Source of the DNA: Promethearchaeati archaeon SRVP18_Atabeyarchaeia-1
Lineage (GTDB): Archaea; Asgardarchaeota; Atabeyarchaeia; Atabeyarchaeales; Atabeyarchaeaceae
Direction of reading: 5' to 3'
Length of the DNA: 64,000 nucleotides
Assembly: GCA_037308085.1 (NCBI GenBank)
Contig: CP147779.1
Location: 128,001-192,000 of the forward strand
Part shown: positions 33,456 to 38,175 of the stretch, in pieces
How positions within the stretch are numbered: position 1 is the first letter of the stretch
Layout of the letters: each line of letters begins with the position of its first letter
Position numbers and translations under genes: made by a program
Notes under the pieces: generated by a model
The model's database searches: none
Told to the model about the DNA's origin: nothing
What the model saw: the letters and a program-made list of their open reading frames with translations, nothing else

Positions 33456-35192
33456 GTGCGGGAAATGAGCCAACCGAATGAAACGGAGTTAAGCCAGTCA
33501 ATTAGGAAGCATGCCTTAATCAACGCGATCAAGCATGACGGCAAAGCTGACATCAAAGCCGTAATGAGCAGGATAATGGCTGACGTGCCTGCGGCGAGGA
33601 GCAAATCCAAGACGGTGAGAGAACTAGTTGACAAGATCGTCGCTGAAATCAATAATACGCCTCTCATACGGCAGAAAGAAATGGCTGGAGAATTAGCCCC
33701 CGACTACTTCGTGGAGTCTAAGAAGACGGCAAAGAAGGAACTGCCTCCACTGCCAGACGCTGCAGAGGGGAAAGTGGTTACCAGACTGGCGCCTGAACCC
33801 AATGGATACATCCATCTTGGAAACGCAATGTCCTTCAATTTCAACTTCTTATATGCCAGACGATACTTAGGGACCCTTTGGCTGCGCTTCGAGGATACTA
33901 ATCCCAAGAAGGAGAAGAAGGAGTACTACAATGCGATAAAAGATGACATCAAGTGGCTTGAGATAAAATGGGACAAGGAGAAAAGCAACTCGGATGACCT
34001 GGAGACCTTCTATGATTTCGCTGGGAAGCTACTCGAGCAGGGCAAAGCGTACATCTGCTCTTGCCCGCTGGAGGGGACAAGGAAGAACCGGGCATCTGGA
34101 TTGACATGCGCTTGCAGAGAGAACCCGCCCTCGAGGAATATCGAACTATGGGACCAGATGCTTTCAAATAGATTCAAAGAGGGGGAAGTTGTTTGGAGAA
34201 TCAAAGGAGACATGCAGAGCACGAACTACGTGATGCGTGATCCTACCCTTTTCAGAATAGTTGATTCCCCACATGCGCTGAAAGGTTCAAAGTACAACGT
34301 GTGGCCGACGTATGACTTTGCCGTGGCTATTGAGGACAGCATATGTGGAGTCACGCATGTACTTAGGAGCAATGAGTTTGCCCTTCGGGGAGAACTGCAG
34401 ACCTATATAAGAACACTACTTGACCTACGTGGCCCAATAATCCTAGAGTATAGCAGATTCAATTTCGAGGGGACGCCGACTTCGAAGAGGCTAATCAAGC
34501 CACTAGTAGATAGCGGCGCTGTTTCTGGCTGGGATGACATAAGGCTCTCGACCATCAGAGGGGTGAGACGCAGAGGAATTATTCCGAAGGCCATTCAGGA
34601 GTTCACTGTTCACATCGGGATCAGCCGTGCACAGCCAGTCTTCTCTTGGGACTTACTGCTAAGCATCAACCGGAAGATCTTGGACCCAATCGCCAAGAGG
34701 TACTTCTTTGTAGAAGACCCAGTGAAGATAATCGTTCAGGATGCACCTAGACTTGTGGTGAAGCTTAAGCACCACCCTGACATTGACCTCGGCTATAGAG
34801 AAGTGGAGACAGGCGACACCTTTTACATTCCCAGAAAAGACTTGGTCGATGCGGGCGGACTCTTGAGGCTAAAGGACCTATATAACGTCAAAGTTGTCGA
34901 GAAAAGTGCGAAAAGTGTTACTTGCAGATTTGCAGGGAGGGATTTAGTCGAGGGTATCACCAAGGTTCAGTGGACCACTGAGGAATTCGTTCCCATTGAA
35001 GTTCTTGTGCCTGGCCTCCTTTATGAGGGGGATTCTCTGAACAAGCATAGCCTTACCATAGTCAAGGGTTACGGCGAAAACTCATGCGGGGAAACGAAGG
35101 TAGATGAACATGTCCAGTTTGAGAGATTCGGATTCTGCAGGATCGATCAGAAGAAGGGGAATTCAATAACCGCGTGCTTCACGCATCGGTAG
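33456..35192 (+). CDS. gltX: Glutamyl-tRNA synthetase (archaeal type)
   Basis: TRLAPEPNGYIHLGN, RFEDTNP, WPTYDFA, THVLR, SKR, QFERFGF. Confidence 0.96.
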   Translation: MREMSQPNETELSQSIRKHALINAIKHDGKADIKAVMSRIMADVPAARSKSKTVRELVDKIVAEINNTPLIRQKEMAGELAPDYFVESKKTAKKELPPLPDAAEGKVVTRLAPEPNGYIHLGNAMSFNFNFLYARRYLGTLWLRFEDTNPKKEKKEYYNAIKDDIKWLEIKWDKEKSNSDDLETFYDFAGKLLEQGKAYICSCPLEGTRKNRASGLTCACRENPPSRNIELWDQMLSNRFKEGEVVWRIKGDMQSTNYVMRDPTLFRIVDSPHALKGSKYNVWPTYDFAVAIEDSICGVTHVLRSNEFALRGELQTYIRTLLDLRGPIILEYSRFNFEGTPTSKRLIKPLVDSGAVSGWDDIRLSTIRGVRRRGIIPKAIQEFTVHIGISRAQPVFSWDLLLSINRKILDPIAKRYFFVEDPVKIIVQDAPRLVVKLKHHPDIDLGYREVETGDTFYIPRKDLVDAGGLLRLKDLYNVKVVEKSAKSVTCRFAGRDLVEGITKVQWTTEEFVPIEVLVPGLLYEGDSLNKHSLTIVKGYGENSCGETKVDEHVQFERFGFCRIDQKKGNSITACFTHR

Positions 35193-35248: not shown

Positions 35249-35363
35249 GGGGCTTCATCGCCAATTCGGGAGAGGGGATTCCCTTCAGAAAGGGTAGCCC
35301 TTTCTGATGGAGGGCGAGGAAGAGGGAACATATGAGAAAACACCTTTACTGGCTCAGCCCCAT
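35249..35363 (-). ncRNA. Candidate ~115-nt K-turn-containing small RNA
   Basis: Closing stem GGGGCU/AGCCCC with a consensus K-turn (CU-GA-GCCA / UGGC-GAU-GA-AG), a perfect 10-bp internal hairpin at 35285-35307, and a TATA box about 25 nt upstream. Confidence 0.6.
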
Positions 35364-35385
35364 GATCAAAACCTAGCTTAGAACA

Positions 35386-35393
35386 TTTATAAA
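35386..35393 (-). promoter_or_regulatory. TATA box for the candidate sRNA
   Basis: TTTATAAA at archaeal promoter distance from 35363/35361. Confidence 0.55.
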
Positions 35394-35486
35394 CGTTTGT
35401 TCGAAAACCGCTTGGTTCTATATGTATTCACCCACTTTCTTGCGACGCTCGCAAGCAATTGCGACAATCACAGAGAAAACGCCATG

Positions 35487-36077
35487 CTAGTCCTCGATGG
35501 TACGTCTTAGCCTGCGACCACAGTTTGTGCAGAACTCTGGGTTCGATTCATACTCGACCCCGCATTTCGGGCACTTGTAGAATTCCTTCTTTGAGGCAGA
35601 ATCGACAAGTTCAACTCTGGTCCTTCTAGCTACCATTCCCTGCTTAGCCAGCCCTCCAACCACCCCCGGCAAACTGAGGATGAATCCGGTTTCAATCCCT
35701 GCCCAGAGCGTCTCCGAGACCACAGGCAACCAGCCCCCAGCCAAGGTCTGTGGGAAGTAGTTCTTAGTGATATAGAGTGAGAGCAGGGCAACTATGATGC
35801 CAGTAAGTAGCCCAGTGAGGATGCCGTCCGTCCAACTCTTCAGAAAGAGGAAGGAAAGGATGAATGTTACAACTAGTAGCACCGTCAGGGAACTGGATGA
35901 TAGCAGGTCAGACAGGAAAACTATGGTGAAGGCAATGACGTATGCGCGCTGTCCTTGACCTTGGTAAGTTTGCAGCAGAGCCTCGTACTGCCCCCGCATC
36001 AGGAAGTATGTTAGAGCAGCCAGAACCAGTATCAGAAGAATGGCTGTGCAGAATGAACGAAGTTTATGCGTTGGCAA
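35487..36077 (-). CDS. Membrane protein with C-terminal zinc ribbon
   Basis: 4-5 TM segments, then CPKC...CTNC. Confidence 0.8.
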   Translation of the reverse strand: MPTHKLRSFCTAILLILVLAALTYFLMRGQYEALLQTYQGQGQRAYVIAFTIVFLSDLLSSSSLTVLLVVTFILSFLFLKSWTDGILTGLLTGIIVALLSLYITKNYFPQTLAGGWLPVVSETLWAGIETGFILSLPGVVGGLAKQGMVARRTRVELVDSASKKEFYKCPKCGVEYESNPEFCTNCGRRLRRTIED

Positions 36078-36150
36078 TGAGTTGACACTACCTGGAAACG
36101 GAGTTTTGCAGGATTCGGTCTCTATCCACCTAGTGGCTCAGAAACCTTAT

Positions 36151-36669
36151 CTATCGCTTTATGTGAGTTAGAATTCCACCGAGTGCCCCCCCTACACCCG
36201 AAACGACGCAGAGCGCCACTGCCTGAAATGAGAGAAGGGACGCTAAATACTGTAGAGGGTTATTCATCCACATTGTTATCAAGCCATCTCCAGGCAGCGC
36301 TATACCCAAGAATGGCGAAAGGAACAGAACTAGCCACCCTATGACAACTGAGAGTATGGCCGAGAACAATCCTGTGCCAAAACCCTTCGAAGCATTTCTT
36401 GAGAGCATCCCTACCGTTATGCCGCCGACGAGCCAAGGCACCACTCCCAGAACCAAGAGTTGGATACTTGAGAGTTCAAGCTGTGCATCGAGAAGCACGT
36501 GGTGTACCAGAAACCATATCTTAGCAACCCAGGTGTATTGCGTGCTGAGAATCGTCTGGGCAAACGTGGCTGGAACTACTTCAGAAGGCAACTCACCGAA
36601 GAGTAACAGACCCCAAGCTAAGCCCAGAGAAACAGCGAAACCAGCGATGATGTTGACCGTTGATCCCAA
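36151..36669 (-). CDS. Small Gly-rich polytopic membrane protein
   Basis: About 4 TM segments with GxxxG motifs. Confidence 0.75.
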   Translation of the reverse strand: MGSTVNIIAGFAVSLGLAWGLLLFGELPSEVVPATFAQTILSTQYTWVAKIWFLVHHVLLDAQLELSSIQLLVLGVVPWLVGGITVGMLSRNASKGFGTGLFSAILSVVIGWLVLFLSPFLGIALPGDGLITMWMNNPLQYLASLLSFQAVALCVVSGVGGALGGILTHIKR

Positions 36670-36813: not shown

Positions 36814-38175
36814 CTATGTTCGTGATAGCCCCTTTACTTCATCGTAGATTGCTTCCACTTTCTTCTGCCAAGTCCCGAGTTCTTTCAAGTTGCGCGGATA
36901 CGACTTGTACAAGGTTTTTGTTTCGCGCATCTTCTTGGCAACAGCATTTAGTCTTTTGAGGAGCGATATTTTGCCTATTCCCCTGAAGACTCGTCTCACT
37001 TTCTCGCTGGTATTGAGTTTGAGTTCAGCGCCCATACTCGTCTTGAGGATGTCTTCTTCAGTTACTATCCTGTTCTTAAGACCATAGTTCAGTTCCTCGT
37101 TTGTTAGGGTCTGAAGCAGTATTCTGAACAGATCGAGTGAGGGCTGCTTGTATCCGTACACCTCAATGAAGTCGGTGTTGTACTTCCAAAGCGAGCGCCA
37201 GCTGTAGTCTTCCTTCTCTATGGCCTTGATGGTGACTGCCCCAGCTGCGTCGCCGGCAAGCATTGAAGAGTGGATTCCGCCTCCGTGCAGCGGGTTGACT
37301 TGACATGCTGAGTCACCCACGAGCGCAAAGCCGTTGGCTACACATGACCATAGTTGGCGTCTGGTTGGAACAACGCCTCCTCCGCCTGTGAGAAGTTTCG
37401 AGTCCTTGAATATTCGCTGTTTGAGAACATGGCCGTATAAGAGTACCTTGGGGTTTGGATGTCCCTTCGCCATTTGTACGCCTAGACCCACGTTCAACCT
37501 TTTGCCAGATTCTGGGAACATCCAGACGTATCCGCCAGGCGCGAGGCTTTGGTCAAGATAGATCTTGCAGCAGTCCGGCGTGTCAAGTTCTTCCTCGACG
37601 GCCCTGATCTCACGATAACAGATTTCCACGTCTCCCGGTTCAACTTCAGTCTCTATGCCGTACTTCTCGGCGAATGGAAGAGCTTTTCTGAGTACCGCAT
37701 AGTACCCGCTCGCGTCAATCGTTATTTTTCCAAGGAATTCGACTGTTTCAGAGGTACTCATCTTCTTTGCGGTTACTCCGCACACTGCGTCATCTTTTAT
37801 GATGGGTGCTTGCACGATTGTTCTGTCGAATAGGGTTGCACCCGCATCGACGGCATCGTCAACGAGCCTTTGCCCGAAGTTCAACCTGTTTATGGTAAAT
37901 CCCTCGCCTTGTATCCTCATGTGGGATTCTCTGTCAGGGGAGTAAAGATCAAAGCCATTGATCTTGTGTTCGAGCTCGCCACCCTGCGGGTACTTCAGCT
38001 TGAGCTTGTCAAAGGCATCTTTTGAAATGCCATCTCCACAGACTTTCTCTCCTATCTTCTTTCTTTCCTTGCTGTCAATGAGAGCGACCCGGAGACCAGC
38101 TTTCGCAATGCGCTTGGCCGCCGCTGTTCCCCCTGTGCCAGCGCCTACGACAATGACATCACATTTTTCCGTCAA
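36814..38175 (-). CDS. Geranylgeranyl reductase family (DGGGPL reductase-like)
   Basis: VVGAGTGG, PGGYVWMFP, VGDSACQVNPLHGGGI. Confidence 0.92.
   Translation of the reverse strand: MTEKCDVIVVGAGTGGTAAAKRIAKAGLRVALIDSKERKKIGEKVCGDGISKDAFDKLKLKYPQGGELEHKINGFDLYSPDRESHMRIQGEGFTINRLNFGQRLVDDAVDAGATLFDRTIVQAPIIKDDAVCGVTAKKMSTSETVEFLGKITIDASGYYAVLRKALPFAEKYGIETEVEPGDVEICYREIRAVEEELDTPDCCKIYLDQSLAPGGYVWMFPESGKRLNVGLGVQMAKGHPNPKVLLYGHVLKQRIFKDSKLLTGGGGVVPTRRQLWSCVANGFALVGDSACQVNPLHGGGIHSSMLAGDAAGAVTIKAIEKEDYSWRSLWKYNTDFIEVYGYKQPSLDLFRILLQTLTNEELNYGLKNRIVTEEDILKTSMGAELKLNTSEKVRRVFRGIGKISLLKRLNAVAKKMRETKTLYKSYPRNLKELGTWQKKVEAIYDEVKGLSRT

What the first reader, a model, noticed from the sequence alone, without database searches (positions are those of the whole stretch)
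35249..35393. Promoter-driven K-turn RNA of no recognisable class, convergent with gltX
Seen on the minus strand: TTTATAAA, then about 25 nt later GGGGCU-GA-GCCA...UGGC-GAU-GA-AGCCCC. This is a consensus K-turn (3-nt bulge, tandem G-A/A-G) closing the molecule. Inside is a perfect hairpin UCAGAAAGGG-CUA-CCCUUUCUGA flanked by pyrimidine tracts (UUCCCUCUUCCUCGCCCUCC; UCCCCUCUCCC). Established: K-turns bind L7Ae. The box order (CUGA 5', GAUGA 3') is the reverse of a C/D sRNA, and no H/ACA pocket is evident. Inference: a new L7Ae-bound sRNA; the CCCUCC tracts are anti-SD-like and could pair with ribosome-binding sites.
Basis: partly seen in the sequence, partly recalled or inferred. Interest (0 to 1): 0.7.

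Follow-up and report, generated by a model that had tools for sequence, protein, structure and literature searches.

The report
Intron-bearing K-turn small RNA of Asgard
This is a real, uncatalogued small RNA gene found in seven families of Asgard archaea: a protein-binding kink-turn clamps its two ends, its loop shows an invariant C-rich motif that looks made to pair with ribosome-binding sites, and in this genome a tiny tRNA-type intron splits that motif.

Summary
On the minus strand, TTTATAAA lies 24 nt before a 113-nt element (35361-35249). Its ends form a consensus K-turn around C/U tracts and a perfect hairpin.

- **Conservation:** It is a stand-alone RNA gene, with 24 homologs in 7 of 27 sampled Asgard families. 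All keep the TATA spacing, the tandem G.A pairs and a G-C pair at position -1. Both flanking helices covary (0 of 500 shuffles reach the observed score).
- **Not yet described:** Rfam has no match, no ORF is conserved, and I found no paper on it.
- **The hairpin is an intron:** The 30-nt hairpin is absent from the closest relatives. It has exact bulge-helix-bulge geometry, and removing it restores the family consensus. Two unrelated introns sit at the same spot in another class.
- **Core motif:** The invariant core CGCCCUCCUCCCC contains CCUCCUCCC. This is the proven anti-Shine-Dalgarno seed of bacterial 'cuckoo'/NfeR1 sRNAs.
- **Best reading:** An L7Ae-capped antisense regulator of purine-rich ribosome-binding sites. 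The function is inferred. No target, transcript or protein binding was shown.

First readers of this scan noted look-alike C-rich elements in other Asgard genomes.

The parts
35249..35361 (-). Whole RNA gene: 113-nt primary transcript, 83 nt after removal of the intron
   Evidence: Covariance-model match with E 1e-17 to 1e-21. Coordinates.
35386..35393 (-). TATA box TTTATAAA, with an A-rich BRE-like stretch just upstream; 24 nt before the first G of the RNA
   Evidence: Sequence. An equivalent box at the same spacing is seen in the K-turn homologs.
35440..35454 (.). Perfect palindrome TTGCGA-N3-TCGCAA, 47 nt upstream of the TATA box; a candidate operator
   Evidence: TGCGA-N3-TCGCA occurs 17 times in the genome, and 16 of these sites are intergenic. 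TTGCGA half-sites lie upstream of homologs in f7, f18 and f20.
35350..35361 (-). 5' (non-bulged) strand of the K-turn: NC-stem GGGGCU, sheared G-A, then C-stem GCCA
35330..35349 (-). Variable, U-rich 5' part of the loop
   Evidence: Poorly conserved in the alignments.
35309..35329 (-). Exon 1 C/U tract, ending in ...CUCGCCCUCC. Its CCCU (35314-35311) forms the central 4-bp helix of the BHB.
   Evidence: Identical 20-mer in all three f1 genomes. BHB fold.
35279..35308 (-). 30-nt bulge-helix-bulge intron: 5' bulge CC|A, inner helix 10 bp (35307-35298 with 35294-35285), AGGG (35284-35281) pairing with exon CCCU, 3' bulge AA|U
   Evidence: Absent from G001 and G002. The unconstrained MFE gives the 3-4-3 geometry. 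Removal restores the family consensus. Independent introns sit at the same site in f18.
35266..35278 (-). Exon 2 C/U tract UCCCCUCUCCCGA. Joined to exon 1 it creates CGCCCUCCUCCCC, which holds CCUCCUCCC.
35249..35265 (-). 3' (bulged) strand of the K-turn: C-stem AUUGGC, loop GAU, sheared G-A, NC-stem AGCCCC
35487..36077 (-). Syntenic upstream gene: 196-aa multi-pass membrane protein with a C-terminal zinc ribbon (CPxCGxEYxSNPxYCxxCG)
   Evidence: Pfam zinc-ribbon matches, the best (PF13240) at 24.8 bits, just under its 25-bit cut-off. Homologs lie directly upstream of the RNA in f1, f7, f8, f14 and f20.
33456..35192 (+). gltX (archaeal-type GluRS), convergent with the RNA; its stop codon lies 57 nt from the RNA 3' end
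   Evidence: Pfam. The same convergent arrangement is seen in f14.

Best explanation
This is a stand-alone gene for a small non-coding RNA of Asgard archaea. Transcription starts about 24 nt after its own TATA box. The first and last 12-15 nt pair into a consensus kink-turn: a terminal NC stem, tandem sheared G.A pairs, a GAU bulge and an inner C stem. This K-turn is expected to bind L7Ae and shield both RNA ends. It closes a largely unstructured loop of 55-90 nt whose invariant part is CGCCCUCCUCCCC followed by UCUCCC-like sequence. In this genome a 30-nt bulge-helix-bulge intron interrupts the motif. The tRNA-splicing endonuclease should excise it, giving an 83-nt mature RNA in which the CCUCCUCCC seed is first created. 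The most likely function is antisense pairing of the C-rich loop with purine-rich, Shine-Dalgarno-like sequences (GGAGG, GGGAGGAGG) in mRNA translation-initiation regions. This is how the bacterial cuckoo/alpha-r14 sRNAs (NfeR1, CcsR) work with the same 9-mer. Shown: gene conservation, promoter spacing, K-turn covariation, intron geometry, and motif invariance. Inferred: transcription, L7Ae binding, splicing, and mRNA targeting.
For: - **Sequence and coordinates:**
- **Breadth:** homologs in f1 (3 of 3), f7 (5 of 5), f18 (6 of 6, with 2-3 copies each), f14 (3 of 4), f20 (2 of 3), f8 (1 of 1) and f5 (1 of 1).
- **Helices:** both K-turn helices covary; no shuffle in 500 reaches the observed score and slid controls collapse.
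- **K-turn details:** G.A/A.G and the -1n/-1b G-C pair are invariant, the loop is GAU, AAU or GGU, and position 3b.3n is free.
- **Loop:** it appears unstructured, since intronless homologs fold no better than shuffles (z -0.6 and -0.4).
- **Motif:** after in-silico splicing, every f1, f7, f8, f14, f18 and f20 RNA has one or two exact CCUCCUCCC copies and 2-6 CCUCC. The same 9-mer is the ultraconserved, experimentally validated anti-SD seed of cuckoo/NfeR1 sRNAs (PMC4615179, PMC10746234).
- **Intron:** 3-4-3 BHB geometry from unconstrained folding in G000 and in two unrelated f18 introns at the same site.
- **Required proteins:** two EndA-family genes and two L7Ae-family genes.
- **Anti-SD and SD signal:** the 16S 3' end is ...GAUCACCUCCU, and G is enriched at -9 to -15 of crude gene starts.
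- **Not a known family, not coding:** no Rfam match. The ORF is not conserved: a stop precedes the tract in G001, and a 1-nt indel shifts the frame in G002.
Against: - No transcript, L7Ae binding, splicing or target was observed.
- Sites complementary to the tract are no more often followed by a start codon than sites matching the reversed tract (17-18% for both), so no target enrichment was shown.
- The longest genomic complements (13 nt) lie inside TnpB-like coding regions and are at chance level.
- Only about 8% of crudely called starts carry GGAGG.
- Invariance of 13 or more nt over distant classes exceeds what a generic SD seed needs, and could instead reflect a sequence-specific protein or a single conserved partner.
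- G000 has no oligo-U run after the 3' stem.
Confidence: 0.5

Rival explanations
1. The C-rich loop is a protein-binding platform or decoy, not an antisense seed. It would bind or titrate a sequence-specific single-strand-binding protein, for example a KH-type poly(C)-binding protein. Alternatively it would titrate a factor that recognises the CCUCCU 3' end of 16S rRNA, such as Dim2/Pno1- or Nob1-like maturation factors.
For: A 13-nt core is invariant across classes whose neighbouring proteins are only 21-28% identical. This is more constraint than a 5-6-nt SD seed needs. No specific RNA target was found. CCUCCU equals the last six bases of the 16S rRNA. The motif recurs in RNAs with other closing modules.
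Against: No candidate protein was identified. Similarity to the 16S 3' end stops at six bases. The bacterial RNAs with the same 9-mer act by base pairing (PMC10746234).
Confidence: 0.2
2. It is a guide or chaperone RNA for stable RNA: a C/D-like methylation guide, or a U3-like pre-rRNA chaperone that pairs with purine-rich rRNA or spacer sequence.
For: It has a K-turn with C-box-like GAUGA and D-box-like CUGA. The 16S has a purine-rich GGAGGAAGGAGGGGG segment.
Against: The box order and K-turn topology are the reverse of a C/D RNA: the loop leaves from the C-stem side. No C'/D' boxes are conserved. The best duplex with the whole rRNA operon (-38 kcal/mol) lies inside the range for random genome windows (-29 to -44).
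Confidence: 0.07
3. The 30-nt hairpin is a lineage-specific structural expansion that stays in the mature RNA, not a spliced intron.
For: The outer exon-exon helix of the BHB is only one G-C pair, so the motif is the relaxed form. No RNA data are available.
Against: The insert interrupts the most conserved motif. Its ends fall exactly two nt into each 3-nt bulge beside a 4-bp helix. Three unrelated inserts in two classes share this geometry and site. Those two classes are the intron-rich Asgard classes (bioRxiv 10.64898/2026.10.13.758758). Two EndA subunits are encoded.
Confidence: 0.15
4. It is a small protein gene (the 54-codon ORF at 35343-35179), or a DNA-level or gltX 3'-UTR element such as a G-quadruplex on the plus strand.
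For: An ORF with an upstream GGUG exists in G000. The plus strand carries four G-runs in all families.
Against: The ORF is closed by a stop in G001 and shifted by a 1-nt indel in G002. The K-turn, the BHB, the TATA spacing and the oligo-U runs are all specific to the minus strand. gltX is adjacent only in f1 and f14.
Confidence: 0.04

Closest known systems
Cuckoo / alpha-r14 sRNA family of alpha-proteobacteria (NfeR1, CcsR1-4/RSs0680; PMC4615179, PMC10746234)
   Same: Both have an ultraconserved CCUCCUCCC motif displayed in unpaired loops, often in 2-3 copies, while the surrounding stems vary freely. Both are stand-alone genes. In NfeR1 the motif is a proven anti-SD seed that silences mRNAs at the ribosome-binding site.
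   Different: The cuckoo RNAs are bacterial, with 2-4 simple hairpins plus an intrinsic terminator, no K-turn and no intron. The Asgard RNA has one large loop closed by a K-turn, a longer invariant core and an archaeal promoter. No Rfam model matches it. The resemblance is convergent, not homologous.
Archaeal box C/D sRNAs
   Same: Both have a K-turn built from a C-box-like GAUGA strand and a D-box-like CUGA strand that joins the RNA ends. L7Ae is the expected primary binder.
   Different: The order is reversed (CUGA 5', GAUGA 3'), so the terminal helix is the NC stem and the loop leaves from the C stem. There is no C'/D' motif and no 10-12-nt guides set at a fixed distance from box D. The loop is 55-90 nt.
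[quoted passage not shown]
   Same: Unpaired UCCC/CCCC motifs conserved across genera that pair with G-rich SD sequences.
   Different: They are bacterial, have a different architecture, and have no K-turn or intron.
Archaeal BHB introns (tRNA and rRNA; cbf5 mRNA in Crenarchaeota, recalled)
   Same: 3-nt bulge, 4-bp helix, 3-nt bulge, with the junctions two nt into each bulge. The host lineages (Atabeyarchaeia, Jordiarchaeia) are the intron-rich Asgard classes.
   Different: The host gene is a small regulatory-type RNA, not a tRNA or rRNA. The outer exon helix is nearly absent (relaxed motif).
C-rich-loop RNAs of other Asgard lineages noted in this scan (predicted BHB-circularised or 14-bp-panhandle forms; AI notes, unpublished)
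   Same: They have their own TATA box, paired ends and a C-rich loop. The f12 panhandle form shares the 13-mer UUCCUCGCCCUCC.
   Different: Their ends are closed by a plain stem or by a BHB predicted to give a circle, not by a K-turn. Homology of the loops is suggested by the shared motif only.

Membership tests
Kink-turn (K-turn) RNA motif | Tandem sheared G.A / A.G pairs next to a 3-nt bulge | tested here: met
   GA on the 5' strand and (G/A)(A/G)U-GA on the 3' strand in all 24 homologs.
Kink-turn (K-turn) RNA motif | Canonical C helix ending in a C-G pair at -1b/-1n, and an NC helix on the other side | tested here: met
   The -1n/-1b pair is G-C in all. The C stem is 4-10 bp and the NC stem 2-8 bp. 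Both covary.
Kink-turn (K-turn) RNA motif | Bound and folded by L7Ae | not testable with these tools
   Two PF01248 genes are present in the genome.
Box C/D sRNA | Box C (RUGAUGA) near the 5' end and box D (CUGA) near the 3' end | tested here: not met
   The order is reversed in every homolog.
Box C/D sRNA | Internal C'/D' boxes and 10-12-nt guides upstream of D and D' | tested here: not met
   No conserved internal boxes. No Rfam C/D family scores above noise; the best is 17.6 bits against a gathering score of 60, and it lies on the wrong strand.
Box H/ACA sRNA | Pseudouridylation pocket, K-turn or K-loop in the upper stem, and ACA 3' of the lower stem | tested here: not met
   No ACA follows the closing stem, the K-turn is at the base, and most homologs have no upper stem.
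Archaeal BHB intron | [quoted passage not shown] | tested here: met
   CCCU/AGGG helix, bulges CC|A and AA|U, 10-bp inner helix, all from the unconstrained MFE. The same holds for two other introns in f18.
Archaeal BHB intron | Removal restores the uninterrupted sequence of intron-less homologs | tested here: met
   The spliced G000 sequence equals the G001 consensus across the junction.
Archaeal BHB intron | Outer exon-exon helix (strict hBHBh' form) | tested here: not met
   Only one G-C pair is present, so this is the relaxed form. Two EndA-family genes suggest a heteromeric, broad-specificity enzyme (the specificity is from recall).
Archaeal BHB intron | Cleaved by EndA and ligated in vivo | not testable with these tools
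Cuckoo / alpha-r14 sRNA family | CCUCCUCCC in unpaired loop(s) | tested here: met
   One or two exact copies in f1, f7, f8, f14, f18 and f20 RNAs after in-silico splicing.
Cuckoo / alpha-r14 sRNA family | 2-4 adjacent hairpins each carrying the motif; alpha-proteobacterial; recognised by the family models | tested here: not met
   It has a single K-turn-closed loop, an archaeal host, and no Rfam match at E up to 10 at the window locus and up to 1 at six homolog loci. It works like the family but is not a member.

The most novel reading that the evidence does not exclude
Asgard archaea possess a phylum-level superfamily of regulatory RNAs. They display one ultraconserved C-rich (CCUCCUCCC-type) loop and protect their ends by interchangeable devices: a K-turn with L7Ae here, a long panhandle in f12, and BHB circularisation in other classes. 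In intron-rich lineages the seed itself is assembled only by tRNA-type splicing, so EndA activity would gate a global translational regulator or a mimic of the 16S 3' end.
Probability: 0.3. Interest if true: 0.8.

Novelty: new variant of a known kind. Interest (0 to 1): 0.62.

Why it matters
- **A first conserved candidate:** Almost nothing is known about regulatory RNAs in Asgard archaea, the closest prokaryotic relatives of eukaryotes. This gives a widely conserved candidate that can be tested directly.
- **A possible new use of the K-turn:** The L7Ae/K-turn module may be used here outside guide RNPs, as an end-cap for a regulatory RNA.
- **Convergence with bacteria:** The seed is exactly the one that bacterial anti-SD sRNAs use. 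If it acts the same way, that is a case of convergent evolution between domains.
- **An unusual intron host:** I know of no tRNA-type intron reported inside a small regulatory-type RNA, and here the intron splits the functional motif. This links the unusual intron load of Atabeyarchaeia and Jordiarchaeia to genes beyond tRNA.

Tried and rejected
2. **rRNA target:** The best duplex with the 10.7-kb rRNA operon is -38 kcal/mol, within the background of random windows.
3. **Unique genomic target:** There is no 18-mer complement with one mismatch or fewer. The single two-mismatch hit and the 13-nt perfect hits lie in coding regions (TnpB-like paralogs) and are at chance level.
4. **Enrichment at start codons:** There is no difference from a reversed-tract control. 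The test is crude because I had no gene caller.
5. **Pairing with the 5' region of the syntenic zinc-ribbon gene:** No conserved purine-rich site was found.
6. **Small ORF:** Rejected.
7. **SECIS, H/ACA, riboswitch or leader readings:** Rejected on orientation, the RNA's own promoter and the non-conserved downstream gene.
8. **Divergent homolog after the zinc-ribbon gene in f2, f6 and f9:** None was seen. f2 has a different conserved structured region there.
9. **Weak model hits:** The hits in f6 (G074) and f4 (G085) look like coding C/U repeats, not homologs.

Full report
**What is in the sequence**

On the minus strand, TTTATAAA at 35393-35386 is followed after 24 nt by GGGGCU-GA-GCCA (35361-35350). 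The element ends with UGGC-GAU-GA-AGCCCC (35263-35249). Between these lie:
- a variable U-rich stretch;
- a C/U tract ending in CUCGCCCUCC (to 35309);
- a perfect 10-bp hairpin with loop CUA;
- a second tract, UCCCCUCUCCCGA (35278-35266).

Rfam 15 has no match at gathering scores in the 64-kb window and nothing credible at E up to 10 locally. Six homologous loci also give nothing at E up to 1.

**The host**

The genome is a single 2.81-Mb contig, and earlier notes call it an Asgard archaeon. Its class holds only three species, two of them closed 2.8-Mb genomes. This fits Atabeyarchaeia (PMC11291895). No tool named the organism, so this is an inference.

**Conservation and coding potential**

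Both other genomes of the class carry the element in the same place, convergent with gltX. Twenty bases of the first tract and most of the second tract are identical in all three. The 30-nt hairpin segment is missing from both relatives.

The 54-codon ORF of G000 is not conserved. G001 has a stop just before the tract and no start codon. G002 has a 1-nt deletion that shifts the frame. So the element is non-coding.

**Family breadth**

A covariance model built from the three sequences found a weak but convincing hit in another family. BLAST then found the element in all five genomes of that family. Two rounds of model rebuilding followed. Searches of 150 sampled Asgard genomes gave matches in:
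- f1 (3 of 3);
- f7 (5 of 5);
- f18 (6 of 6, with two or three copies each);
- f14 (3 of 4);
- f20 (2 of 3);
- f8 (1 of 1);
- f5, a diverged copy (1 of 1).

Nothing convincing was found in the other 20 families sampled, including the large f6, f9 and f4. 'Not found' here refers only to those genomes searched, with filtered Infernal. f7 and f18 together form one class. Their genome sizes and the family names in bioRxiv 10.64898/2026.10.13.758758 suggest Jordiarchaeia.

**The K-turn is real**

Across 18 sequences, 7 of the 10 modelled pairs show changes on both sides. 91% of cells pair, against 78 +/- 2% in shuffles. No shuffle in 500 reaches the covariation score. Sliding the partner strand by 1-3 columns drops pairing to 21-55%.

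In all 24 homologs the tandem G.A/A.G and the G-C pair at -1n/-1b are invariant. The bulge is GAU (20 cases), AAU (3) or GGU (1). Position 3b.3n varies freely (U-A, C-G, G-C, U.G, A.G, A.A, C.A). The C stem is 4-10 bp (G001 by eye).

A TATA-type box lies 27-35 nt before the modelled 5' end in 23 of the 24; in G006 the script's nearest match was at -9 and the box at the usual spacing was read by eye. An oligo-U run follows in many homologs, though not in G000. The genome encodes two L7Ae-family proteins. L7Ae is the universal archaeal K-turn binder (abstract of PMC5539422, listed). Binding itself was not tested.

The topology is not that of a C/D RNA:
- the D-like strand is 5' and the C-like strand is 3';
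- the terminal helix is therefore the NC stem, and the loop leaves from the C stem;
- no C'/D' boxes or positioned guides exist.

**The hairpin is an intron**

The 30 nt at 35308-35279 are absent from G001 and G002. Removing them joins ...GCCCUCC to UCCCC..., which reproduces the family consensus exactly.

Unconstrained folding of the junction region gives the following:
- a 4-bp helix between exon CCCU and intron AGGG;
- a 3-nt bulge CC|A carrying the 5' junction;
- a 10-bp inner helix;
- the 3' junction two bases into AA|U.

This is the bulge-helix-bulge signal of the archaeal splicing endonuclease, in its relaxed form because the outer exon helix is a single G-C pair.

In f18, one paralog carries a 29-nt insert at the same position and another genome carries an unrelated 29-nt insert 3 nt upstream. 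Both fold into the same 3-4-3 geometry, and removal again restores the consensus.

Atabeyarchaeia and Jordiarchaeia are exactly the classes reported to have heavily interrupted tRNA genes with repeated intron gains (PMC11291895; bioRxiv 10.64898/2026.10.13.758758). G000 has two EndA-family genes. Splicing is therefore the best reading (about 0.8), but no RNA evidence could be obtained.

**The loop and its likely role**

Intronless homologs fold no better than shuffled sequences (z -0.6 and -0.4), so the loop is probably single-stranded. Its invariant core is CGCCCUCCUCCCC. After in-silico splicing, every RNA of f1, f7, f8, f14, f18 and f20 holds one or two exact CCUCCUCCC copies and 2-6 CCUCC. 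In G000 this 9-mer exists only after intron removal.

A lead from an earlier first-reader note, checked in the literature, showed where this 9-mer is known. CCUCCUCCC is the ultraconserved loop motif of the alpha-proteobacterial cuckoo/alpha-r14 sRNAs. In those RNAs the stems vary freely, and the motif acts as redundant anti-Shine-Dalgarno seeds that silence mRNAs at the ribosome-binding site (PMC4615179, PMC10746234).

The 16S rRNA of G000 ends in GAUCACCUCCU. Crude gene starts show G enrichment at -9 to -15, so SD-led initiation exists in this organism. On this basis I favour an L7Ae-capped antisense regulator of purine-rich initiation regions.

**Tests that did not support a specific target**

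- The rRNA operon offers no duplex beyond background.
- No long complement exists in the genome apart from chance hits in coding regions, among them three TnpB-like paralogs.
- Complementary sites are no more often followed by start codons than sites for a reversed control tract.
- The neighbouring gene's 5' region holds no conserved site.

The 13-nt invariance is also more than a generic SD seed needs. A protein-binding or decoy role therefore stays a serious rival.

**Context**

In f1, f7, f8, f14 and f20 the RNA lies directly downstream of a membrane protein of about 195 aa with a C-terminal zinc ribbon. In f1, f8 and f14 that gene is preceded by another small membrane protein. In f1 and f20 a geranylgeranyl reductase gene lies further upstream. 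The zinc-ribbon protein family occurs across the phylum, but families without the RNA show no C-rich element after it. I read this as retained ancestral synteny and found no functional link.

A perfect palindrome, TTGCGA-N3-TCGCAA, lies 47 nt upstream of the TATA box. TGCGA-N3-TCGCA occurs 17 times in the genome, 16 times between genes. TTGCGA half-sites precede homologs in f7, f18 and f20. This suggests regulated expression.

**Relatives without a K-turn**

The models also picked up RNAs that share the C-rich loop but are closed differently:
- in f12, a 14-bp panhandle around a loop containing the same 13-mer, UUCCUCGCCCUCC;
- in f7, a 12-bp G+C stem around a 41-nt pyrimidine run.

Notes from this scan on other genomes describe the same f12 and f18 elements. 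They also describe predicted BHB-circularised C-rich-loop RNAs in other Asgard classes. These are unchecked AI notes. I confirmed only the f12 and f18 sequences that I saw myself. Together they suggest a wider set of Asgard RNAs that present one C-rich motif with different end-protection devices.

**Verdict**

This is a real, conserved, uncatalogued small RNA gene family. The K-turn and the promoter are well supported. The hairpin is reinterpreted as a BHB intron. The anti-SD function is plausible by analogy with bacterial RNAs that use the same seed, but it is unproven.

Noticed in passing
window 35440-35454; genome-wide in G000: The palindrome TGCGA-N3-TCGCA occurs 17 times in the 2.8-Mb genome, against about 3 expected. 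Sixteen of the 17 sites are intergenic, often near TATA-like boxes. It is a candidate operator of an unknown, widely used transcription factor.
   Followed up: partly
G000:C1:452010-452051 (outside the window); L287: A second copy of the last ~40 nt of 16S rRNA (GGGGAACCUGCGACUGGAUCACCUCCU) lies about 1 kb downstream of the true 16S 3' end, inside the 16S-23S spacer. The 16S gene itself spans 2.4-2.6 kb, with insertions including one in helix 45.
   Followed up: no
window 35487-36669 and 36814-38175; L266, L268, L269, L247: There is conserved microsynteny: geranylgeranyl reductase, then a ~160-aa membrane protein, then a ~195-aa membrane protein with a C-terminal zinc ribbon (CPxCGxEYxSNPxYCxxCG). 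The zinc-ribbon protein family is found in 142 of 151 Asgard genomes and matches no Pfam family beyond the ribbon.
   Followed up: partly
L312, L313, L314, L316 (family f2), ~100-330 nt after the zinc-ribbon gene: A conserved non-coding region of about 200 nt is closed by a long-range stem CUGGCGG/CCGCCAG, in the place where other families carry the K-turn RNA. It is not C-rich and is probably a different structured RNA.
   Followed up: no
L280 1501-1587 (G008), L281, L283 (family f7); L297/L298 ~1495-1600 (family f12): These are C-rich-loop RNAs without a K-turn. In f7, a 12-bp G+C stem encloses a 41-nt pyrimidine run. In f12, a 14-bp panhandle lies upstream of a Rab-like GTPase gene and shares UUCCUCGCCCUCC with the K-turn RNA.
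   Followed up: partly
G000:C1:2666345-2667838, 1640788-1642212, 1926976-1928697: Three paralogous ORFs of about 475-575 aa have an IEDL-type RuvC motif (TnpB-like). Each carries a 10-13-nt perfect complement to the RNA core inside its coding sequence, which I judged to be chance.
   Followed up: partly
L247 2-1423 and L261 1666-3087 (family f7): A 474-aa protein with an N-terminal TrmB-type DNA-binding domain and a long coiled-coil region is encoded directly downstream of the RNA on the same strand. First-reader notes report the same neighbour in f18.
   Followed up: no
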